Source of the DNA: Escherichia coli phage NG_A1
DNA: 64,000 bases
Direction: 5' to 3' (one strand)
Sequence record: LC788705.1
Shown: piece by piece, positions 4,995 through 47,777 of the stretch
How the letters are laid out: every line of letters starts with the position of its first letter
Numbering within the stretch: the first letter of the stretch is position 1
The notes under the pieces: generated by a model
Told to the model about the DNA's origin: nothing
The model's input: the letters and a program-made list of their open reading frames with translations, nothing else
Database searches by the model: none
Made by a program: the position numbers and the translations under genes

Positions 4995-5952
4995 ATTTCG
5001 CAGCTCTAGCCAAGATTCTATCAATGTCGCCTTGAGATAGCTTCTCGACTTCACGGAAGTAAAGTTCAAGTTCACCTAACATATCAAGATCAACAAGATT
5101 TAACTTAGCGTCTTTAGTAACTCGATGGTTAATCTTCTTATCTAATAAATCAGAGTCTTTGATAGACTTTAATTGAACAACGTCACCAGTAACTTCGTAG
5201 ACTACACGATCATAATCACTAGGTTCCATCTCTTCACCAGCTCCGATTGTTTTACGAATCAGTTGTGGTAAATCACCTAGTTCAATCCATTCTACTTTTA
5301 ATGTGTCGGTATCAATGATAAAGCAACCATTTGTACCTTTTGTGCGTTCTCTATGGAACGATGTAGTTAATGGAGATCCTGGGTAGAGAAGTCTAGTAGA
5401 TCCGATAGTCTGGCTATTAGTATAAGAATGTAAATCGCCAGCAATTACAGTATCATAACAGTTGTACTTAGTTAGATCAATTTCTGGTTTTACATGTGGA
5501 GGGATTTCACCACGAACATGCGTGAAACATAGTTTTGATTCAGCAGGTTTCCACTTGGGTTTATGAATCTCATCATATGGGACAATATCAAATTCAGGGG
5601 AACGATATGGTTTGGTAATTACTTCCCATTTCCCACTAGTTACTTTATTAATAACCCCCGCATAATGATATAGACATGAAATGGTTTTAGTTAACATTTC
5701 ATGATTTCCAGTAAAGATTTTACCTGGATGGTCAAGTCTTGACATGAACTGTTCAAGCAGTTCTATTTCTTCTGACGACGGGTCGGCAACATCAAGTATA
5801 TCACCACCAGCAATATGAAGATCACAGTTATGATTATGGAATATATCATTTAACCGTTCTCCTAGCATCAGGAAGCGACGCTTCTGCCATTCCTTTGGAA
5901 CTTTATCTTGTCCTAGTTTGATATGATGATCAGCACTAAATAATATTCTCAT
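4975..5952 (-). CDS. SbcD/Mre11-like nuclease (metallophosphoesterase)
   Basis: 325 aa; MRILFSADHH...GGDILD...GNHE phosphoesterase motifs. Confidence 0.8.
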   Translation of the reverse strand: MRILFSADHHIKLGQDKVPKEWQKRRFLMLGERLNDIFHNHNCDLHIAGGDILDVADPSSEEIELLEQFMSRLDHPGKIFTGNHEMLTKTISCLYHYAGVINKVTSGKWEVITKPYRSPEFDIVPYDEIHKPKWKPAESKLCFTHVRGEIPPHVKPEIDLTKYNCYDTVIAGDLHSYTNSQTIGSTRLLYPGSPLTTSFHRERTKGTNGCFIIDTDTLKVEWIELGDLPQLIRKTIGAGEEMEPSDYDRVVYEVTGDVVQLKSIKDSDLLDKKINHRVTKDAKLNLVDLDMLGELELYFREVEKLSQGDIDRILARAAKYVKDYN

Positions 5953-41278: not shown

Positions 41279-41596
41279 ATGACTTTTCATATTTTGATTG
41301 ATGATGTGCGTAATCTTCATGGAATGGACATTATCATTCGAACCCCAGAAGCCGCTGTCGAGTTTCTGAATAAAACTGATACCACAGGCCACTTTGTTTA
41401 TATGGATAATGACTTGGCTGTAGATGGTATGGAAGGTTATCAAATTCTTCGTTTACTCTTAGAATTTGGGCAGAGACCAAAGAAAGTGGTACTAGTAACC
41501 TCGAATCCCGTAGCTAAGCAAACTATGCGTAATGATTTGCTTGACTTAGGGTATAAAGAAAATCCCAATCGTGTCGAATATGATTGGCAGGAGTAA
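41279..41596 (+). CDS. Small protein with receiver (CheY-like REC) domain-like pattern
   Basis: 105 aa; HILIDD...VYMDNDL.VDGMEGYQILRLL...VVLVTSN. Confidence 0.35.
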   Translation: MTFHILIDDVRNLHGMDIIIRTPEAAVEFLNKTDTTGHFVYMDNDLAVDGMEGYQILRLLLEFGQRPKKVVLVTSNPVAKQTMRNDLLDLGYKENPNRVEYDWQE

Positions 41597-41601
41597 AAAG
41601 A

Positions 41602-42051
41602 ATGAAGACAGCTTTGCTTTTAGTAGCTGCCCTTACCTTCAGCTTTAGTAGTCAGGCATCGCACGATGCAAAAGAAATAGATTGCATTGCTAAAAATATC
41701 TATTTCGAAAGTCGTGGTGAGGGCATAAAGGGAATGACGGCGATTGCACATGTTACTAAAAACCGTGTAAACTCCGGTAAATTCCCAGATTCCTACTGTA
41801 AAGTAGTATATCAGTCTAACCAGTTCTCTTGGGTATCTAAGAGACCAAAAGTTGATAAAACTGATGAGGCTTGGCAAACCGCCAAGAATTTAGCTAGAGT
41901 GATATACTACGTTGATTTACCACAAGATCCTACACATGGAGCTTTATACTTCCATAGTGGTAAAGATAAACCATACTGGACAAAGAAGTTTAAGAAAACA
42001 ACTAAGATTAAGGGACATACATTTTATAAGCCTGTTGTCACTAAAACTTAA
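41602..42051 (+). CDS. SleB-like cell-wall hydrolase with signal peptide
   Basis: Signal peptide MKTALLLVAALTFSFSSQA; IAKNIYFESRGE...AIAHVTKNRV...NQFSW; start at ATG 41602 after GGCAGGAG. Confidence 0.65.
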   Translation: MKTALLLVAALTFSFSSQASHDAKEIDCIAKNIYFESRGEGIKGMTAIAHVTKNRVNSGKFPDSYCKVVYQSNQFSWVSKRPKVDKTDEAWQTAKNLARVIYYVDLPQDPTHGALYFHSGKDKPYWTKKFKKTTKIKGHTFYKPVVTKT

Positions 42052-42059
42052 AAATTTAT

Positions 42060-42088
42060 TTGCTTAAATACTTAAACTTCTGTATAAT
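42060..42088 (+). promoter_or_regulatory. Early-type promoter
   Basis: TTGCTTaaatacttaaacttctgTATAAT. Confidence 0.65.
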
Positions 42089-42119
42089 ACTTTCATAAAT
42101 TAATGAGGGGAAGCGAAAT

Positions 42120-42290
42120 ATGAAATCAGTTGTAATTATTGGTGTTAATACTCGCGGTATTCGTACTACGAAAACTGTTAAAACTTCCAACGTTGCTGAG
42201 ATCACTACGAACCCTAAAAAGTTTGATTTCGCCAAAGTCTCAGCAGTTATGACAGAACAATCTTTTAACCAAGCGTTAGGAATGAAATAA
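42120..42290 (+). CDS. Small hypothetical protein (56 aa)
   Basis: ATG 42120 after GAGGGGAAG; below track cut-off. Confidence 0.3.
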   Translation: MKSVVIIGVNTRGIRTTKTVKTSNVAEITTNPKKFDFAKVSAVMTEQSFNQALGMK

Positions 42291-42733
42291 TGGAAGAGGA
42301 TATTTTAGATGTTTTGCGTAGAGCTTTGCAGGATTCTAAGTTTAATGGTTCTGATAAAGAAGTCGCTAAAAGCTATCAGACCATAATCGGGGATCTTCAG
42401 CGTATTAATAAAGATTTCATCACTTCTGAACAATTTGTGTCTTATCTCAAAGCTCAACTAAAAAGCATTAACCAGATGAAAGCTAAACTTCATGGTCAAG
42501 ATCTTGATAGTTATAGCTTGCAGTCCGCTCAGTATGAATACATTCTAAATAAGTGGTTGCAGGAGTATCTGCCCTCTCAGTTATCTGATACTGAGATTCG
42601 TAAATACTTTGCAGAATTAGTTAAGCTAAACCCTGGAATTACAAAAGGTATGCTGATGAAAGCGATCAAGGAAGAATTTCCTGGGCGTTATGATGGTGGT
42701 ACTGCTGCTCAGATTGCTGGCGAATTTAATTAA
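42290..42733 (+). CDS. GatB/YqeY-domain protein
   Basis: 147 aa; LQEYLPSQLSDTEI...GMLMKAIKEEFPGRYDGGTAAQIAGEF matches YqeY/GatB C-terminal domain pattern. Confidence 0.65.
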   Translation: MEEDILDVLRRALQDSKFNGSDKEVAKSYQTIIGDLQRINKDFITSEQFVSYLKAQLKSINQMKAKLHGQDLDSYSLQSAQYEYILNKWLQEYLPSQLSDTEIRKYFAELVKLNPGITKGMLMKAIKEEFPGRYDGGTAAQIAGEFN

Positions 42734-42741
42734 AAATTTAT

Positions 42742-42770
42742 TTGCTAAATGCTTATAAATTCTGTATAAT
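42742..42770 (+). promoter_or_regulatory. Early-type promoter at the head of the tRNA region
   Basis: TTGCTAaatgcttataaattctgTATAAT. Confidence 0.65.
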
Positions 42771-43007
42771 ATATTCATAAATTAGAGAACAGCGAGCCGA
42801 TTACGCTGAACTTGTCTTAATGTAAGATGCGTCGAGCACTAAGATTCGTTGAATAGAGTCGGTGGGTTAGTTGTAAAACTAGTACACAGGGGGCGGCAAT
42901 CCCGGTTAGTGGCTAGAACGTGTAAAATGAGGCGTCTGAAACCTCTCCCCTAAACTCTTCTCTAATTTATAAATAGTGGGGTGTGGAAATCACTTATGTA
43001 GTAACAC

Positions 43008-43080
43008 TGCCGTCCTAGTATAATTGGTATTATCAAGCCGTAACTGGTGGAAGATGTAGGTTCGAATCCTACGGTCGGTA
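43008..43080 (+). ncRNA. tRNA-like element (canonical T-arm, imperfect acceptor pairing)
   Basis: T-arm gtagg-ttcgaat-cctac at 43056-43072, D-loop-like aattggta; no 7-bp acceptor helix found. Confidence 0.25.
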
Positions 43081-43589
43081 AGAACTGGATAACTGATGCT
43101 TTTAATGTAAAAGCTTCCGAGGTTAGTTGCGCACTGCCTAAACCACGCGGTAGTTGGTTCCAGACTAACCAACCAGTCTGCTGAATAGTTTTATTACGAT
43201 TTAACTATGTCCAGGCTAAAGAAGAACTTTAGAAGGTATTCTAGGATAGTGAAGTTCTTTCTCCATATCGGAGTAGTTTTTCAAGCTATCCACAAAGTGG
43301 GAAATGCTGACATGAGAGATGTCACTAATGGTGCACAATAGCACAGGTAATTCGCGATAACTCCTGTTGAGTAGCAGCAAAAGGTGGGAAGTCATGACCC
43401 CAAGCCTAACCGAGTCCTCAATATACCGCAGGACATAACTACTAAGTCACCCTGACTTAAACTGGAAAATAATAGACGTTACTGTATTTTGTCTTGAAAT
43501 ACTTAATGAGTGAGACTTATGACTCTCCCGGTATCGTCTGTATTTTTAAGAGTTTTTACGAGAGTTCTTAAAAATACTTAAACGGGGTG

Positions 43590-43657
43590 TAGTCTAAGGG
43601 AGAGGCAGGAGTCTTCTAAATTCCTTTATGCAGGTTCGAATCCCTTGTCACGCACCA
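43590..43657 (+). ncRNA. tRNA-like element ending in CCA
   Basis: ggttcgaatcc T-loop at 43633-43643 and ...cgcaCCA 3' end; stems imperfect. Confidence 0.25.
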
Positions 43658-43689
43658 AATTTGATGGTCAGAGTAAATTAAACCTACTA

Positions 43690-43733
43690 TCTCGGTTGAG
43701 CTGTTTTAATGGGTTCGAATCCCAGCGAGGCGT
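43690..43733 (+). ncRNA. tRNA-like minihelix (T-arm plus short acceptor-like stem)
   Basis: ctcg...tggg-ttcgaat-ccca-g-cgag. Confidence 0.2.
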
Positions 43734-43782
43734 AACTGCCTGGTGTGATAGAGGCATCATTCCACTAACATTGGAAAAACTA

Positions 43783-44013
43783 ATGAAACGAAAATTAAAA
43801 AAGTCTTATATAATTAAGATAAATAAGCTACGAAGTAGGGCAAAAGGATGGCCACTTCGAATATTAATTGCGGATAACCATACTAGATACCATGCGGAAC
43901 AACGTCATTACAAACAGTGGGAGTCATACTGCCGCTCAAAAGCAGGTCGTTTAGATGGATCTTATGAGTTTCTATTTGGTAAAAAGCCTACTAGAGTAGC
44001 TTTAGGTAATTAA
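43783..44013 (+). CDS. Small basic hypothetical protein in the tRNA region
   Basis: ORF from ATG 43783 (track ORF 43645..44013 begins inside tRNA-like sequence). Confidence 0.3.
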   Translation: MKRKLKKSYIIKINKLRSRAKGWPLRILIADNHTRYHAEQRHYKQWESYCRSKAGRLDGSYEFLFGKKPTRVALGN

Positions 44014-44018
44014 TACTT

Positions 44019-44109
44019 GGAAGAGCAAATCGAATTGGCGACGAAAACCGCTTGGAAAGTGGCTGACTGGTAAAACGGCTTGAGAGTTCAAATCTCTCCT
44101 CTTCCGCCA
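44019..44109 (+). tRNA. Type II tRNA, probably tRNA-Ser (anticodon GGA tentative)
   Basis: 7-bp acceptor ggaagag/ctcttcc, discriminator G, CCA; T-arm gagag-ttcaaat-ctctc; 91 nt with long variable arm. Confidence 0.5.
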
Positions 44110-44121
44110 AACAATTTATAT

Positions 44122-44216
44122 GGTAGGTCAATCCAACGGCTGGCGCTGGACTCCGACTTGAAATCGGTTGATCGTAGTGATACGGTGTAAGGGTTCGATC
44201 CCCTTACCTACCTCCA
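44122..44216 (+). tRNA. tRNA-Ser (UGA), type II
   Basis: Acceptor ggtaggt/acctacc, CCA; anticodon loop cTTGAaa on stem ccga/tcgg; T-arm aaggg-ttcgatc-ccctt. Confidence 0.55.
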
Positions 44217-44221
44217 AATCT

Positions 44222-44352
44222 TGGAATATGCCGGAATTGGTAGACGGGACTGCCGAATAGGTTTACTAGGAACATCCACTCCTAGAAATATACCTTAAAA
44301 GCGGTTGAGTTAAATGGTCTAACTCATGAAGGTTCAAGCCCTTCTATTCCTT
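44222..44352 (+). ncRNA. Atypical tRNA-like element, about 131 nt
   Basis: Leu/Tyr-type D-arm ccggaattggtagacgg, T-arm gaagg-ttcaagc-ccttc, acceptor-like tggaata/tattcct, but about 80 nt between D- and T-arms. Confidence 0.3.
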
Positions 44353-44581
44353 GATACATCAATGGCTCAAAGTGTAACGGTGCTATTTGATGCTCTTGGA
44401 AAGACTTTCCCGACATGCGTTCGGGGGTAAGCTTCTGAGGCTAGAATAGAAGAGTTTCTGAGAGCCGCCACAATTGAAAATTCGTACTCGTCTTGAGCTG
44501 CATGCAATAGGAGATAACTTGATTAGTATTCTAGAACATGCTAATTGAGGATGGTTTCGCTAACCCTGCGAGTTTTCAATT

Positions 44582-44659
44582 GTGGCTATATCATAATTGG
44601 TTAATGATCCTGATTGTGAATCAGGCCTATGTGGATTCGAATTCCACTAGCCACCCCCA
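44582..44659 (+). tRNA. tRNA-His (GUG)
   Basis: Acceptor gtggcta/tagccac, D-stem tcat/atga, anticodon loop ttGTGaa on stem cctga/tcagg, T-arm gtgga-ttcgaat-tccac, 3' CCCCA. Confidence 0.65.
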
Positions 44660-44684
44660 AATTAACTTAAATAGGAAATAAAAT

Positions 44685-44879
44685 ATGGCTGATTTCTGCA
44701 AACAATGCTCCATTGATATGTGGGGCAGAGATACTGGTGATCTTTCTGGGCTGATTACAGAAGCCGAAGTCAAAGAAGGTTATGGTGCAGTTGTGGTTTG
44801 TGAAGGATGCGGAGTCATTCGAGTAGATCATGAGGGTAAGCGCCTTGAAGAACCTGAGCCAGTTACCCTATTTCCCTAA
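44685..44879 (+). CDS. Small Cys-rich (zinc-ribbon-like) protein
   Basis: 64 aa; CKQC...CEGCG. Confidence 0.4.
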   Translation: MADFCKQCSIDMWGRDTGDLSGLITEAEVKEGYGAVVVCEGCGVIRVDHEGKRLEEPEPVTLFP

Positions 44880-44892
44880 AGTAAAGAATTAT

Positions 44893-44968
44893 TGGGATGT
44901 AGATCAATTGGCAGATCGTCGGCCTCTGACTCCGAAGGTTCCACGTTCGATCCGTGGCATCCCAGCCA
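44893..44968 (+). tRNA. tRNA-Gln (CUG)
   Basis: Acceptor tgggatg/catccca (U1:A72), D-stem gatc/gatc, anticodon loop ctCTGac, T-arm ccacg-ttcgatc-cgtgg, G+CCA. Confidence 0.7.
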
Positions 44969-44974
44969 AATACT

Positions 44975-45050
44975 TGGAGAGTAGTGTAACGGTTAGCACA
45001 ACGGCCTTTGACTCCGTTAATGGTAGGTTCGATTCCTCCTTCTCCAGCCA
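44975..45050 (+). tRNA. tRNA-Gln (UUG)
   Basis: Acceptor tggagag/ttctcca (U1:A72), anticodon loop ctTTGac, T-loop ttcgatt, G+CCA. Confidence 0.7.
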
Positions 45051-45057
45051 AATTAAT

Positions 45058-45132
45058 GCGTGATTAGTTCAGTGGCTAGAATAACTGGCTTCCAACCAGT
45101 AGACACGAGTTCGACTCTCGTATCCCGCACCA
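45058..45132 (+). tRNA. tRNA-Gly (UCC)
   Basis: Acceptor gcgtgat/atcccgc (one mismatch), anticodon stem actgg/ccagt with loop ctTCCaa, T-arm acgag-ttcgact-ctcgt, A+CCA. Confidence 0.7.
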
Positions 45133-45146
45133 AATAAGGAAACACT

Positions 45147-45398
45147 ATGCACGTTTTTGAGTTTCGTAATAAAAGTACTGATAAGCGAGTTATCATTATT
45201 GGAGAAACATATCGAGCATATGAACAAACTGATGGCTCTGTTATCTTGAATGATGAGAAAGGAGGTTTTAGCTTTTATCCAGAAGAACCTTATGAAGAGT
45301 TTCGAAAACAATTTAACCTAGACTGGAGAAAGCATTTAAACACTGTTGCTTCATCTGTAGTATTGCCAACTACCAGTACTGTACTCTCTAATGGCTGA
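45147..45398 (+). CDS. Hypothetical protein
   Basis: 83-aa ORF after AAGGAAA. Confidence 0.4.
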   Translation: MHVFEFRNKSTDKRVIIIGETYRAYEQTDGSVILNDEKGGFSFYPEEPYEEFRKQFNLDWRKHLNTVASSVVLPTTSTVLSNG

Positions 45399-45555
45399 CA
45401 ACCTAAAAGTAAAGATTGATAAACAAAAGAAACGTGTAGAAGTAGAGATTGGTGAAGAACGTGTTGCCTTTACTTTTGAATTTCTACAGCAAATGGCAAT
45501 GGCAGTTATGACTGATAAGTCTCCTGTTATTGAAAAAGAAATCCCGTTGAAATAA
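45391..45555 (+). CDS. Small hypothetical protein (54 aa)
   Basis: ATG 45391 overlapping previous ORF end; hairpin 45541-45565 follows. Confidence 0.3.
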   Translation: MADNLKVKIDKQKKRVEVEIGEERVAFTFEFLQQMAMAVMTDKSPVIEKEIPLK

Positions 45556-45565
45556 CGGGATCATC

Positions 45566-45640
45566 GCTCCTAAAGCATTGCTGGCGATGCAGTTGCCTTG
45601 TAAGCATCTGAACCGGGTTCGATTCCTGGTGGGAGCACCA
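45566..45640 (+). tRNA. tRNA-Thr (UGU)
   Basis: Acceptor gctccta/tgggagc, D-stem gcat/atgc, anticodon loop ctTGTaa, T-arm ccggg-ttcgatt-cctgg, A+CCA. Confidence 0.65.
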
Positions 45641-45655
45641 AATTTAAAAATTCAT

Positions 45656-45684
45656 TTGCCTTCTCTCTTATTTATTGTTATAAT
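45656..45684 (+). promoter_or_regulatory. Early-type promoter
   Basis: TTGCCTtctctcttatttattgtTATAAT. Confidence 0.6.
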
Positions 45685-45714
45685 ATTTATATAAATTAAT
45701 GAGAGGGAAACCAA

Positions 45715-46005
45715 ATGAAACGTTATCTTTCTATTGTATTCCAAACTGGTGGTCAAAGATATACCTATGAATTTCCATCTTCTTGGAAAATCAAAGAAGG
45801 TGATCAAGTAGTAGTGTTAACACCGCGTGAAGGGTATAAAGTAGTAATGGTTAAACAAGTATTCCCAAAAGATCATGAACCAGCTAAAGGCATTCGCTAT
45901 AAGATGATTCATGGTGTGGTCCGTCAAGTACCACGAACTGAGGTAGAAGTAGATAAGACTGGAGAAACTAAATTCCATTATACTTCTTACTTAGATAGTG
46001 TGTGA
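45715..46005 (+). CDS. Hypothetical protein
   Basis: 96-aa ORF with GAGAGGG RBS. Confidence 0.5.
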   Translation: MKRYLSIVFQTGGQRYTYEFPSSWKIKEGDQVVVLTPREGYKVVMVKQVFPKDHEPAKGIRYKMIHGVVRQVPRTEVEVDKTGETKFHYTSYLDSV

Positions 46006-46020
46006 TGTAAATATTCTAAT

Positions 46021-46097
46021 ACTTCGGTAGCTTAGCGATCTAAAGCACCCGGCTGATAACCGAGAGATCGGGGGTTTAAATCCCTCCCGGAGTACCA
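46021..46097 (+). tRNA. tRNA-Ile (GAU)
   Basis: Acceptor acttcgg/ccggagt, D-stem gctt/aagc, anticodon loop ctGATaa, T-arm ggggg-tttaaat-ccctc, A+CCA. Confidence 0.6.
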
Positions 46098-46193
46098 AAT
46101 TTAGGAATTAAGACTATGCGTCCAGGAAAGTTTAAAAAAGCTAATTGGTCTAAAGAGTATAAAGAATACTTACTTAGTCTAGTAAAACATAAC

Positions 46194-46269
46194 AGTTAGT
46201 TGGCAGAGTGGTTATGCACCTCCTTCATACGGAGCGACTACAGTGGTTCAAATCCACTACTAACTACCA
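46194..46269 (+). tRNA. tRNA-Met (CAU); could be initiator or a lysidine-modified Ile isoacceptor
   Basis: Exact acceptor agttagt/actaact, anticodon loop ttCATac, T-arm agtgg-ttcaaat-ccact, A+CCA. Confidence 0.6.
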
Positions 46270-46306
46270 TTAAAAGAGCTAGAGATAGCTAAATTTAGGA
46301 GCAGCT

Positions 46307-46501
46307 ATGTTAACAATTAAAATAATGTCAGCCAAGAATGGTGAACATATCCATACAGGCAAAAGTGTAAGCTTTAATCCTAGAAATAAAAGATTGGCTA
46401 TAGTTGGAGTAGACCAAGCCATCTTTTTAAAAGAAGATGAAGTAGCATATGTCATGAACCAAACTGGTAAGACAGTTTCCGTATACTATGGAAAAGTATA
46501 A
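46307..46501 (+). CDS. Hypothetical protein
   Basis: 64-aa ORF. Confidence 0.4.
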   Translation: MLTIKIMSAKNGEHIHTGKSVSFNPRNKRLAIVGVDQAIFLKEDEVAYVMNQTGKTVSVYYGKV

Positions 46502-46543
46502 AGAATAAATAGCTGAGCCAAATTCTAACATCGGGGAGATCTA

Positions 46544-46912
46544 ATGAAAGCATATCAAAGTCTTAAATCTGGCGTAATTAACCTTGTTCATGAAAATCAG
46601 ATTATTCAGCTATACTCCGACAACGGTGAACTTAAACAGAAAGTTCTAGTTGAAGATCTAGAAGGTATCACACCACAATTCGATCCCGAAGCCTTCCGTG
46701 AAGTCAAAGTGGAAGTCGCCCCTCAAATCGAAGGTGGTCAGCACCTAAATGTCAATGTGTTAAGCCGTGATCAGCTTTTGGATGTGCAGAAACATCCTGA
46801 AAAATATCCTCAGTTGACCATCCGTGTCTCTGGCTACGCTGTTCGATTTAACGCACTGACTCGTGAACAACAGAACGACGTTATTAGTCGTACATTTACT
46901 CAGGCGATGTAA
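46544..46912 (+). CDS. grcA: GrcA/YfiD-like autonomous glycyl-radical cofactor protein
   Basis: 122 aa; [11 protein letters not shown]...[31 protein letters not shown] matches the glycyl-radical domain of GrcA/PFL. Confidence 0.8.
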
Positions 46913-46993
46913 TGGGGTTTGGATACGATTTCTCCCAGCTACGCAAGGTAGTCGAGCAAACTCCGTTTATCTCCCAAGTTTTAGGAGAAATGG

Positions 46994-47308
46994 GTGGATC
47001 GAGCATTAAGACGCCATCACCGGCAACGTGTGAAGAACAACCGCAAGAAGTATTGGACAGTCTTTCCACATGAAGAAAGCCCTAAGCGGTTAGGTATTAT
47101 CACTACTACTCCTTGCATCTGTTCTTGCTGGATGTGTGGGAACCCTCGCAAATATTATAAGAATAGTAAAGCAGGTATGAAAACCTCGGAGATTAGGAAA
47201 ATGGAAGCAATGATTACGGATATTTCAAATGATGAATTTGATGGCTTTGTAGGATTCGGAGAAGGAATTAGCTCAGGCTGTTTCGAAGATGTACGCCCCG
47301 ATTTGTAA
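46994..47308 (+). CDS. Hypothetical Cys-containing protein
   Basis: 104-aa ORF, start uncertain. Confidence 0.35.
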   Translation: MDRALRRHHRQRVKNNRKKYWTVFPHEESPKRLGIITTTPCICSCWMCGNPRKYYKNSKAGMKTSEIRKMEAMITDISNDEFDGFVGFGEGISSGCFEDVRPDL

Positions 47309-47317
47309 TTAATAACA

Positions 47318-47355
47318 AACCCCAGCTATTGAATAGGTAGTCTGGGGTTTTTCTG
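47318..47355 (+). terminator. Rho-independent terminator
   Basis: ccccag...ctgggg hairpin then TTTTTC. Confidence 0.7.
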
Positions 47356-47429
47356 TATACAGGTAGATAATTTATGTATAATAAAATTCATCCACATTAG
47401 GTTAATTTAAAAAACTTAATGGAGGTAAT

Positions 47430-47777
47430 ATGAGCCGTACTTATCGTAAACAATCTGGTGATCAGTGGTGGAAGTCTAAAGAACAATTCTCTCAAGAATA
47501 TTCTTTCATCAAAGAAAATGGATACTGGATTCGTGTTATTTATGCCAAATCTTGGGACGACATCAAAAAAGAAATGAAGGAAGCAACCATTCGTAATGAG
47601 AAAAAGGATGGTTATAACTGGAATTCTATTAGCAAGAATGTTAAGTGGCATTCTAATAAAATGGTTCGTCAAGGAAATCGTCAAGAACTCCACCGCGTGA
47701 TGAAAGATCCAGAAAATTACGACTATAATCGCGATCATGACATGCGTAAGCGTGGATTATGGTGGTGCTATGACTAA
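47430..47777 (+). CDS. Hypothetical Trp-rich protein
   Basis: 115-aa ORF after GGAGG. Confidence 0.5.
   Translation: MSRTYRKQSGDQWWKSKEQFSQEYSFIKENGYWIRVIYAKSWDDIKKEMKEATIRNEKKDGYNWNSISKNVKWHSNKMVRQGNRQELHRVMKDPENYDYNRDHDMRKRGLWWCYD

What the first reader, a model, noticed from the sequence alone, without database searches (positions are those of the whole stretch)
42780..43760. tRNA-like elements with canonical T-loops but non-canonical acceptor stems at the head of the tRNA cluster
Three perfect GGTTCGAATCC T-loops (about 43059, 43633, 43712) sit within 1 kb downstream of promoter 42742, yet no standard 7-bp acceptor helix could be drawn by hand around them. 43590-43657 ends in CCA, and 43690-43733 looks like an acceptor plus T-arm minihelix. 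These may be unusual tRNAs, tRNA fragments or tRNA-mimic small RNAs. T-even phages are known to encode small stable RNAs in their tRNA regions.
Basis: partly seen in the sequence, partly recalled or inferred. Interest (0 to 1): 0.5.

Follow-up and report, generated by a model that had tools for sequence, protein, structure and literature searches.

The report
T5-type tRNA-like relics and deletion scar
The three perfect tRNA "T-loops" are three different things in a T5-like phage: a tRNA-shaped domain inside a large stable RNA of unknown function, a broken hybrid tRNA left by a 7.2-kb deletion, and a small conserved structured spacer.

Summary
GGTTCGAATCC occurs exactly three times, at 43059, 43633 and 43712, against 0.04 expected by chance. 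The window is a T5-like phage (Tequintavirus), not a T-even phage.

- **T-loop 1 (43059):** It belongs to a 72-nt tRNA-like domain, 43009-43080. The domain lacks a 7-nt anticodon loop and an encoded CCA. It caps a covarying 12-bp helix inside the homologue of T5 "RNAX". GenBank annotates RNAX as a roughly 720-790-nt "stable RNA with unknown functions", and it has no Rfam match. Covariation across several Demerecviridae genera shows that RNAX is structured.
- **T-loop 2 (43633):** It is the crossover point of a 7,193-bp deletion. That deletion fused the 5' three-quarters of tRNA-Arg(UCU) to the 3' strand of tRNA-Leu(UAG). This explains the mismatched T and acceptor stems. The deletion also removed at least 12 tRNA genes and an anti-defence locus.
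- **T-loop 3 (43712):** It lies in an unannotated structured spacer of about 100 nt, 43663-43761, downstream of tRNA-Leu1. The spacer is conserved, with compensatory changes, in three Demerecviridae lineages.

None of the three is a normal decoding tRNA. Interest is moderate: RNAX is an under-studied large structured phage RNA, and the rest is ordinary.

The parts
42742..42770 (+). Sigma-70-type promoter (TTGCTA-17-TATAAT), homologous to T5 promoter P16-17. It drives RNAX and the tRNA genes downstream.
   Evidence: 10 of 12 consensus matches. (aligns with the annotated P16-17 of T5 and phage 5). No + strand terminator-like site lies between it and 44328.
42784..43582 (+). Homologue of T5 rnaX (RNAX, 'stable RNA with unknown functions'). 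It is a non-coding transcript of about 800 nt that ends at the 5' end of tRNA-Arg.
   Evidence: 95.5% identity to phage 5 RNAX over the whole length; T5 aligns from 42953 on (91-98%) and lacks 42789-42952. Conserved islands occur in Epseptimavirus, Sugarlandvirus, Pantoea AAS21 and Yersinia phiR2-01. Covarying helices are shown. No Rfam family other than tRNA matches.
42989..43002 (+). 5' strand of the helix that encloses the tRNA-like domain. It pairs with 43084-43097.
   Evidence: 12 pairs, 100% paired in 28 distinct sequences, 6 pairs with compensatory changes. The mismatches C42993*C43093 and G42998*G43088 are invariant.
43009..43080 (+). tRNA-like domain carrying T-loop 1. It has an acceptor stem (G.U pair, U.U mismatch), a D-arm with GG, and a T-arm GUAGG-UUCGAAU-CCUAC. 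In place of the anticodon arm it has a 3-bp stem with a 6-nt loop. It encodes no CCA.
   Evidence: Rfam tRNA 35.5 bits. ARAGORN makes no call here and gives inconsistent anticodons in relatives: Ser-ACU, SeC-UCA, Ser-AGA, '???' and Ser-CGA. The T, D and acceptor stems covary. The variable arm has a long form in Klebsiella phages and in contig L064. The 3' end reads ...GGTCGGTA|agaa, whereas the real tRNA genes read CCA|aat.
43084..43097 (+). 3' strand of the enclosing helix.
43098..43114 (+). Conserved hairpin GCUUUU-AAUGU-AAAAGC immediately 3' of the enclosing helix.
   Evidence: helix 8. Compensatory variants are GCUUCU/GAAGC, GCUUAU/AUAAGC, GGUUCU/GAACC and GGUUAU/UAACC.
43296..43480 (+). 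3' structured domain of RNAX, with several hairpins closed by GUGG/CCAC.
   Evidence: 97.3% of cells paired against 32-49% in slid controls; 9 pairs with changes on both sides against 0-4 in the controls.
43539..43578 (+). Hairpin of 17-18 bp ending 4 nt before tRNA-Arg. It is conserved from Tequintavirus to the Klebsiella and Yersinia T5-like phages.
   Evidence: island e; 18 bp, 96% paired.
43583..43657 (+). Hybrid tRNA gene. Positions 43583-43632 are tRNA-Arg(UCU) specific, 43633-43643 is the shared T-loop, and 43644-43657 is the 3' T-stem strand, acceptor strand and CCA of tRNA-Leu1(UAG). The T and acceptor stems are mismatched.
   Evidence: three-way alignment with Baret tRNA-Arg and tRNA-Leu. 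(21.2 bits against 49.3 for the intact Arg gene). (the 5' 61 nt are identical to T5 tRNA-Arg).
43633..43643 (+). Crossover interval of the 7,193-bp deletion (T-loop 2). It is the 11-nt stretch shared by the two parental tRNA genes.
   Evidence: The junction is absent from 50,697 phage records and from IMG/VR.
43663..43761 (+). Structured spacer between tRNA-Leu1 and tRNA-Ser2. It has a closing stem 43663-43668/43756-43761, a T-arm 43710-43724 (T-loop 3), and an adjacent 7-position hairpin 43725-43744.
   Evidence: It is 98-100% conserved in Tequintavirus. It is 72-78% identical in Pectobacterium phage DU_PP_V and in Klebsiella Sugarlandvirus, with compensatory changes in the T-stem (UGGG/CCCA, CGGG/CCCG, CAGG/CCUG) and in the hairpin (A-U to G-C). 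It is unannotated in the BF23 and phage 5 records.
43783..44013 (+). 76-aa ORF of unknown function. It is inserted after the spacer, where T5 carries the homing endonuclease gene hegC.
   Evidence: and (phrog_7065, E = 3e-36, unknown function). No Pfam match.

Best explanation
The window is the start of the tRNA gene region of a T5-like phage (Tequintavirus). The three identical T-loops belong to three unrelated objects.

1. **43009-43080 is a tRNA-shaped domain.** It has acceptor, D and T arms, but a short variable hairpin replaces the anticodon arm and no CCA is encoded. It caps a conserved 12-bp helix formed by its own flanking sequences. It lies inside the roughly 800-nt RNAX transcript made from the P16-17-type promoter. 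RNAX is a conserved multi-domain structured non-coding RNA of T5-like phages. The domain cannot decode. I infer that it gives RNAX a tRNA-like elbow and acceptor surface, recognised by tRNA-handling proteins for processing, stabilisation or binding of a partner.

2. **43583-43657 is a hybrid gene.** It arose when a 7,193-bp segment was deleted by recombination within the 11-nt T-loop identity shared by tRNA-Arg(UCU) and tRNA-Leu1(UAG). The product has the Arg body with the Leu 3' strand, so the T and acceptor stems no longer pair. It is most likely a dead tRNA.

3. **43663-43761 is a conserved structured spacer of about 100 nt, co-transcribed with the tRNAs.** A T-arm is followed directly by a hairpin, which resembles an acceptor/T minihelix, and the whole is closed by a 6-bp stem. 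It is probably a tRNA-derived processing or stability module.

Shown here: the identities, the deletion, the conservation and the base-pair covariation. Inferred: expression, processing and function.
For: **Phage identity.**

**RNAX homology and annotation.**

**The tRNA-like domain:**
- It scores 35.5 bits on the Rfam tRNA model.
- It is conserved in Tequintavirus, Epseptimavirus, Sugarlandvirus, Pantoea AAS21 and Yersinia phiR2-01.
- ARAGORN's anticodon calls in relatives are mutually inconsistent.
- It has no encoded CCA, whereas eight of the ten real tRNA genes checked in the window end in CCA followed by A.
- In 28 sequences, 90.1% of cells pair, against 34-40% in slid controls. Nineteen pairs show compensatory changes, against 1-6 in the controls and 0 of 500 shuffles reaching 19.
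- The enclosing helix is 100% paired, with 6 covarying pairs.

**Other RNAX domains.**

**RNAX conservation.** It is about as conserved as the neighbouring yqeY-like coding gene.

**The deletion:**
- Window 43633-44600 equals Baret 73335-74302 at 99.8% identity. The sequence up to about 43643-43651 equals the Baret tRNA-Arg region.
- The three-way alignment places the switch inside GGTTCGAATCC.
- The intact Arg gene scores 49.3 bits and the chimera 21.2 bits.
- T5 deletion variants in this region are known to be viable (PMC11464382).
- Another T5-like record carries microhomology deletions at tRNA 3' ends.

**The spacer.**
Against: - I have no expression or end-mapping data. 'Stable RNA' is only the wording of the T5, BF23 and phage 5 GenBank records, and I found no paper on RNAX.
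- Single-sequence folding energies are not unusual: z = -1.24 for RNAX and -0.5 to -0.9 for the three elements.
- The covariation rests on perhaps 5-7 independent lineages, so the counts are inflated by shared ancestry.
- RNAX is modular. T5 lacks 42789-42952. Some phages carry an HNH ORF in place of the 5' domain, or an ORF inserted before tRNA-Arg. Eps7 has no recognisable tRNA-like domain. So not every part is essential.
- The hybrid tRNA might still be processed or partly functional. ARAGORN can draw a frame-shifted cloverleaf for it.
Confidence: 0.8

Rival explanations
1. All three are ordinary functional tRNAs that hand-folding missed.
For: ARAGORN calls 43582-43657 tRNA-Arg(tct). Rfam's tRNA model passes its gathering score at 43009-43080. 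Several GenBank records label the homologues tRNA-Arg, tRNA-OTHER or tRNA-Sec.
Against: The 'tRNA-Arg' is demonstrably half Arg and half Leu, with only 2 or 3 Watson-Crick pairs in each affected stem, and scores 21.2 bits against 49.3 for the intact gene. Element 1 has a 6-nt or otherwise variable loop, inconsistent anticodon calls, no CCA, and sits on a conserved helix formed by its flanks. Element 3 matches only the T-loop.
Confidence: 0.03
2. Elements 1 and 3 are decaying tRNA pseudogenes in transcribed spacer DNA, and RNAX has no function of its own. The conservation would simply reflect the recent common ancestry of T5-like phages.
For: The T5 tRNA region is full of tRNA-derived remnants and is prone to deletions and insertions. 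Parts of RNAX are missing or replaced in some phages. Folding energies are unremarkable.
Against: Compensatory substitutions keep helices paired across genera whose intervening sequence cannot be aligned: 19 and 9 double-change pairs, far above the slid and shuffled controls. Mismatches and linker nucleotides around the tRNA-like domain are invariant. RNAX is as conserved as the adjacent coding gene. The spacer is conserved in three deep Demerecviridae lineages.
Confidence: 0.1
3. The tRNA-like domain is excised from RNAX by RNase III at the flanking helix, followed by RNase P and 3' trimming, and then CCA-tailed. It would act as a free small tRNA mimic, for example a decoy for host tRNA-targeting defence nucleases, or a ligand of the phage YqeY-like protein encoded just upstream.
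For: The topology is that of a pre-tRNA, with a 6-nt 5' linker, a discriminator A and a helix formed by its flanks. T5 tRNAs are documented counter-defences: tRNA-Lys against PARIS (PMC11464382) and tRNA-Tyr against a retron (PMC10644984). The yqeY-like gene is syntenic in most relatives.
Against: There is no anticodon loop for anticodon nucleases to target. The T5 record treats RNAX as a single stable RNA. The helix is only 12 bp with two conserved mismatches, which is short for RNase III. Klebsiella relatives keep the domain without an adjacent yqeY gene. No data on RNA ends are available.
Confidence: 0.15
4. The Arg/Leu junction is an assembly or engineering artefact rather than a natural deletion.
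For: The junction is unique among 50,697 phage records and IMG/VR.
Against: An 11-nt repeat is too short to collapse a modern assembly. Both flanks are collinear with relatives at more than 99% identity up to the same 11-mer. Viable T5 deletion variants in this region are well documented, and a second T5-like record shows similar microhomology deletions.
Confidence: 0.05

Closest known systems
T5 rnaX / RNAX (misc_RNA T5s08 in NC_005859; also annotated in BF23 NC_042564 and phage 5 AJ604531)
   Same: Same locus, promoter, orientation and sequence: 95.5% identity to phage 5 RNAX over the whole length; T5 aligns from 42953 on at 91-98%. It ends at the 5' end of tRNA-Arg and contains the same tRNA-like domain.
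   Different: The GenBank records give no structure and no function, and do not mention the embedded tRNA-like domain. The window's copy has the 5' domain 42789-42952 that T5 itself lacks.
Hybrid tRNA genes made by unequal recombination between phage tRNA genes (phage T4, McClain and Foss, 1980s; recalled from memory, not checked here), and T5 tRNA-region deletion mutants (Glukhov et al. 2018, as cited in PMC11464382)
   Same: A multi-kilobase deletion inside a phage tRNA cluster, with the crossover in a short conserved tRNA segment, leaving a fused gene. The phage remains viable but loses tRNAs.
   Different: This particular Arg/Leu junction is not in the phage databases searched. The hybrid here has mismatched stems and is probably inactive.
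GOLLD and ROOL RNAs (large phage-associated structured RNAs found next to tRNA genes; PMC12286853, PMC5737381 listed; details from memory)
   Same: Size of 0.6-0.9 kb, phage-encoded, adjacent to tRNA genes, multi-domain conserved secondary structure, unknown function. From memory, some GOLLD RNAs carry an embedded tRNA.
   Different: No match to either Rfam model even at E up to 10. The host range is Enterobacterales T5-like phages. Nothing is known about oligomerisation.
T5 tRNA-like stable RNAs RNA1, RNA2 and RNA3
   Same: They lie in the same gene region, are tRNA-derived with T-arm motifs, and are annotated as stable RNAs of unknown function. RNA1, RNAI and RNAIII homologues lie at 44216-44581 in the window.
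   Different: The spacer element at 43663-43761 is not annotated in any record examined. In T5 proper it is absent, and hegC occupies that interval.
Bacterial Y-RNA-like YrlA and other tRNA mimics (from memory)
   Same: A T-arm and D-arm elbow mimic embedded in a larger RNA that does not decode.
   Different: In YrlA the anticodon side opens into the long stem. Here the acceptor end is joined to the enclosing helix and the 'anticodon' arm is a closed variable hairpin. No Rfam family other than tRNA matched.

Membership tests
Canonical tRNA (Rfam RF00005 / ARAGORN), element 1 (43009-43080) | Score at or above the curated threshold, and a cloverleaf with acceptor, D and T arms. | tested here: met
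   35.5 bits against a gathering score of 29. The acceptor, D and T stems covary.
Canonical tRNA, element 1 | A 5-bp anticodon stem with a 7-nt loop giving a consistent anticodon, and a 3' CCA (encoded in most real tRNA genes of this phage). | tested here: not met
   It has a 3-bp stem with a 6-nt loop. Arm length varies among relatives. ARAGORN makes no call here and gives five different anticodon calls in relatives. No CCA is encoded.
Canonical tRNA, element 2 (43583-43657) | A 7-bp acceptor stem and a 5-bp T stem; score at or above threshold. | tested here: not met
   21.2 bits, below 29. The T stem has 2 Watson-Crick pairs plus 1 G.U. The acceptor has 2 of 7 pairs in register. The cause is the Arg/Leu fusion.
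Canonical tRNA, element 3 (around 43712) | Any cloverleaf beyond the T-arm. | tested here: not met
   Only a 15-nt T-loop match to the tmRNA model, at 10.9 bits. ARAGORN makes no call.
T5 RNAX | Sequence homology and synteny: P16-17 promoter, then RNAX, then tRNA-Arg. | tested here: met
T5 RNAX | Accumulates as a stable RNA in infected cells. | not testable with these tools
   Only the wording of the GenBank annotation is available.
GOLLD / ROOL | Match to the family covariance model. | tested here: not met
   No hit at E up to 10 over 42760-43800, and none at E up to 1 over 41500-47500.
tmRNA (including permuted forms) | A tRNA-like domain plus a tag reading frame; an ARAGORN or Rfam call. 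| tested here: not met
   ARAGORN finds none. Rfam matches only the 15-17-nt T-loop.
Hybrid tRNA gene formed by deletion | The left part is identical to one parental tRNA and the right part to another, the switch lies inside a shared segment, and the intervening DNA is missing. | tested here: met
   (7,193 bp missing; 11-nt shared segment).

The most novel reading that the evidence does not exclude
RNAX would be an unclassified family of large (about 0.6-0.9 kb) structured RNAs of Demerecviridae that acts as a whole. In it, an anticodon-less tRNA-shaped domain is displayed on a conserved helix with invariant C*C and G*G mismatches. On this reading it works as a tRNA mimic that engages a tRNA-binding partner rather than as a tRNA precursor. 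The partner could be the phage YqeY-like protein, a host processing enzyme or a tRNA-directed defence factor. The Leu1-Ser2 spacer would be a second, smaller module of the same kind.
Probability: 0.25. Interest if true: 0.7.

Novelty: new member of a known kind. Interest (0 to 1): 0.4.

Why it matters
- **Annotation.** Tools label the chimera 'tRNA-Arg' and the RNAX domain 'tRNA-OTHER', 'tRNA-Sec' or 'tRNA-Ser'. Neither is a decoding tRNA, so tRNA counts for T5-like phages are inflated.
- **Phage biology and therapy.** The 7.2-kb deletion removes at least 12 tRNA genes, including both tRNA-Lys copies. T5 tRNA-Lys neutralises PARIS (PMC11464382). The deletion also removes the TOPRIM 'primase' gene, whose T5 counterpart is reported to be the anti-retron factor Rad (PMC10644984). 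This phage is therefore predicted to be sensitive to those defences.
- **RNA biology.** RNAX is a long, promoter-proximal, covariation-supported structured RNA. It is present in hundreds of sequenced T5-like phages, is absent from Rfam, and has no known function. That makes it a tractable candidate in a classic model phage.

Tried and rejected
- **Known RNA families.** tmRNA (including permuted forms), GOLLD, ROOL, group I introns and every other Rfam family gave no hits apart from tRNA and chance-level matches.
- **Coding explanation for 42780-43580.** Only ORFs of 44-60 aa are present. Relatives differ by 1-nt indels inside them, and the substitutions are compensatory in stems.
- **More distant RNAX homologues.** Motif scans of IMG/VR and of metagenomes returned almost only the same T5-like phages plus chance hits, for example L051 in an unrelated phage.
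- **The junction elsewhere.** There were 0 hits in IMG/VR, and no phage record covers the junction.
- **Literature on RNAX.** Nothing was found. The key paper on T5 tRNA-region deletions (Glukhov 2018, PMID 29512629) is not held.
- **Thermodynamic evidence.** Single-sequence folding was uninformative, with z-scores between -0.06 and -1.44.
- **A circularly permuted tRNA reading of the spacer.** I considered it, but the linker lengths and the missing D-arm do not fit. This was my own inspection.
Full report
**Observation.** GGTTCGAATCC occurs exactly three times in the window, at 43059, 43633 and 43712, all on the + strand. Shuffles give a mean of 0.04 matches. A strong sigma-70-type promoter lies at 42742-42770. 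ARAGORN calls only one gene in 42780-43760, tRNA-Arg(tct) at 43582-43657. Rfam's tRNA model passes its threshold at 43009-43080 (35.5 bits against 29) but not at 43587-43651 (21.2 bits). At 43712 only the T-loop itself matches. Its own refutation test, that all three fold as ordinary tRNAs, did not come true.

**Context.** The window is a T5-like phage (Tequintavirus, Demerecviridae), not a T-even phage. The curated T5 record annotates this locus as follows:
- promoter P16-17;
- misc_RNA rnaX, "RNAX, stable RNA with unknown functions", 719 nt;
- tRNA-Arg, immediately downstream of RNAX.

The phage 5 and BF23 tRNA-region records say the same, with RNAX at 785 nt. The T5 tRNA region also lists seven other "stable" or "tRNA-like" RNAs. 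Homologues of RNA1, RNAI and RNAIII lie at 44216-44581 in the window.

**T-loop 2 is a deletion scar.** Homology with most relatives stops at the 3' end of "tRNA-Arg". The sequence from 43633 to 44600 is 99.8% identical to phage Baret about 7.2 kb further downstream.

A three-way alignment shows the following:
- The window follows Baret tRNA-Arg up to GGTTCGAATCC.
- After that it follows Baret tRNA-Leu(UAG).
- The 11-mer is the only stretch the two genes share at that point.
- The missing segment is 7,193 bp.

The intact Arg gene folds canonically and scores 49.3 bits in eleven relatives. The hybrid has the Arg 5' strands facing the Leu 3' strands. That leaves about 2 Watson-Crick pairs plus 1 G.U in the T stem, and 2 of 7 pairs in register in the acceptor stem. 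This is exactly why no acceptor helix could be drawn.

No record among 50,697 phage genomes spans the junction, and IMG/VR holds no copy of it.

The deletion removes several genes:
- the SPFH/"lipoprotein" gene;
- the TOPRIM "primase" gene;
- at least 12 complete tRNA genes (Ser, Met, Leu, Glu, Phe, Cys, Asn, Asp, Lys, Pro, Met, Lys).

Viable T5 variants with large deletions here are documented. They become sensitive to PARIS because tRNA-Lys is lost (PMC11464382). The T5 TOPRIM gene is reported to be the anti-retron factor Rad (PMC10644984). A second T5-like record, OR896837, carries two other deletions in this cluster, with 5-nt and 14-nt microhomologies at tRNA 3' ends. Short conserved tRNA segments therefore seem to be recurrent deletion endpoints.

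**T-loop 1 is a domain of RNAX.** The 72-nt element 43009-43080 is conserved in Tequintavirus, Epseptimavirus, Klebsiella Sugarlandvirus, Pantoea AAS21 and Yersinia phiR2-01.

Its features are:
- The T stem covaries (GUAGG/CCUAC, GUGGG/CCCAC, GCAGG/CCUGC).
- The D stem and the acceptor stem also covary.
- The "anticodon arm" is a 3-4-bp stem with a 4-6-nt loop. In Klebsiella phages and in metagenomic contig L064 it is a much longer arm.
- ARAGORN assigns Ser-ACU, SeC-UCA, Ser-AGA, "???" and Ser-CGA to different relatives.
- Eight of the ten real tRNA genes checked in the window end in CCA followed by A. This element has no CCA.

RNAalifold on 28 distinct sequences found that the flanks 42989-43002 and 43084-43097 form a 12-bp helix enclosing the element. 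Counting on the structure-blind MAFFT alignment gave these results:

| Measure | Observed | Controls |
|---|---|---|
| Cells paired, whole structure | 90.1% | 34-40% (partners slid) |
| Pairs with changes on both sides | 19 | 1-6 (slid); 0 of 500 shuffles reach 19 |
| Enclosing helix | 100% paired, 6 covarying pairs | - |

Two internal mismatches, C42993*C43093 and G42998*G43088, are invariant. So are the linkers AACACU and AAGA.

**The rest of RNAX.** It is also structured.
- A hairpin at 43098-43114 has five compensatory variants (helix 8).
- The domain 43296-43480 is 97.3% paired, against 32-49% in slid controls, with 9 double-change pairs against 0-4.
- The region 43218-43290 has two covarying pairs.
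- A hairpin of 17-18 bp at 43539-43578, just before tRNA-Arg, is conserved as far as the Klebsiella and Yersinia phages.
- In the 5' domain, a GCCGA...UCGGU pairing becomes GCUGA...UCAGU in AAS21.
- RNAX is about as conserved as the neighbouring yqeY-like coding gene.
- No Rfam family other than tRNA matches.

RNAX is modular. T5 lacks 42789-42952. Some phages have an HNH ORF in place of the 5' domain, or a 170-aa ORF inserted before tRNA-Arg. Eps7 has no recognisable tRNA-like domain.

**T-loop 3 is a structured spacer.** Positions 43655-43760 are the spacer between tRNA-Leu1 and tRNA-Ser2. It is unannotated in the curated BF23 and phage 5 records. In T5 proper the homing endonuclease gene hegC occupies this interval.

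The spacer is 72-78% identical in Pectobacterium phage DU_PP_V (Mccorquodalevirinae) and in Klebsiella Sugarlandvirus. RNAalifold gives three helices, and 5 of the 23 predicted pairs show compensatory change:
- a closing stem, 43663-43668 with 43756-43761;
- the T-arm, 43710-43724, with UGGG/CCCA, CGGG/CCCG and CAGG/CCUG;
- a directly abutting hairpin, 43725-43744, with A-U changing to G-C.

With only three lineages this evidence is suggestive rather than strong.

**Mechanism.** These points are shown:
- the identity of each element;
- the deletion and its crossover;
- the conservation and the base-pair covariation.

These points are inferred:
- Transcription from the P16-17-type promoter runs through RNAX into the tRNA genes, because no + strand terminator is found.
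- The tRNA-shaped domain cannot decode. It gives RNAX a tRNA-like elbow and acceptor surface for tRNA-handling proteins, whether for processing, stabilisation or binding a partner.
- The hybrid tRNA is inactive.
- The spacer is a tRNA-derived processing or stability module.

Whether the domain stays within RNAX or is excised as a small mimic cannot be decided without RNA end-mapping.

**Comparison and novelty.**
- RNAX is already annotated, but only as a name. Its structure, its embedded tRNA-like domain and its spread across Demerecviridae are not in Rfam or in the literature I could search.
- Hybrid tRNA genes from unequal recombination are a known kind in phage T4 (from memory), and T5 tRNA-region deletions are known. 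This junction is a new instance.
- RNAX resembles GOLLD and ROOL in size, phage origin and tRNA neighbourhood, but it fails their covariance models.

**Verdict.** This is a new member of known kinds, of moderate interest. The most novel reading that remains open is that RNAX is a new class of large tRNA-mimicking phage RNA.

Noticed in passing
window 44019-44110 and 44122-44216: There are two long-arm tRNA genes that ARAGORN does not call. They correspond to T5/BF23 tRNA-Ser2(GGA) and tRNA-Ser1(UGA). The second scores 38.3 bits on the Rfam tRNA-Sec model, below its threshold. Both end in CCA followed by A.
   Followed up: partly
window 44216-44581: This stretch holds homologues (96.9% identity) of the T5 stable RNAs RNA1 (tRNA-like, with a GGTTCAAGCCC T-arm), RNAI and RNAIII. 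All are of unknown function, and they lie directly before tRNA-His.
   Followed up: partly
L005 8284-8360 (Baret); L018 527-603 (BF23): tRNA-Leu1(UAG) is only 77 nt long, with a 5-nt variable region instead of the long arm typical of bacterial tRNA-Leu. Even so, the BF23 record says an anticodon swap turns it into an effective amber suppressor.
   Followed up: no
L079 (OR896837, 98.7-kb mar004NP2 variant) 5371-5483: Relative to Baret there are two further deletions in the tRNA cluster, of about 1.3 kb and 2.0 kb. Their junctions have 5-nt and 14-nt microhomologies at or next to tRNA 3' ends.
   Followed up: partly
L015, L007, L011 417-899; L007 1487-1996; L012 1731-2240: Mobile-looking ORFs sit inside RNAX in some relatives. 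An HNH endonuclease gene replaces the 5' domain just after the promoter. A 170-aa ORF is inserted between the conserved RNAX 3' hairpin and tRNA-Arg.
   Followed up: partly
window 42290-42733: The gene immediately upstream of the RNAX promoter encodes a YqeY-like protein (Pfam YqeY 26.2 bits, just under the cut-off of 27; PHROG 1460 'tRNA amidotransferase'). It is syntenic with RNAX in Tequintavirus, Epseptimavirus, AAS21 and phiR2-01, but not in the Klebsiella phages. It is a possible tRNA-binding partner, untested.
   Followed up: partly
L064 8490-8680 (metagenome contig, 112 kb): This RNAX is otherwise of the Tequintavirus type, yet it carries the long 'anticodon-arm' form of the tRNA-like domain seen in Klebsiella Sugarlandvirus. 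That suggests exchange of this sub-module between lineages.
   Followed up: no
window tRNA genes 44582-46269: Most real tRNA genes in the window encode CCA followed by AAAT or AAT (His and Met are the exceptions). The shared CCAAAT(T) tail is the microhomology used in one of the OR896837 deletions.
   Followed up: partly
window 43783-44013: A 76-aa ORF (phrog_7065, unknown function, no Pfam match) occupies the position where T5 has the homing endonuclease gene hegC. Some relatives lack any ORF there.
   Followed up: partly
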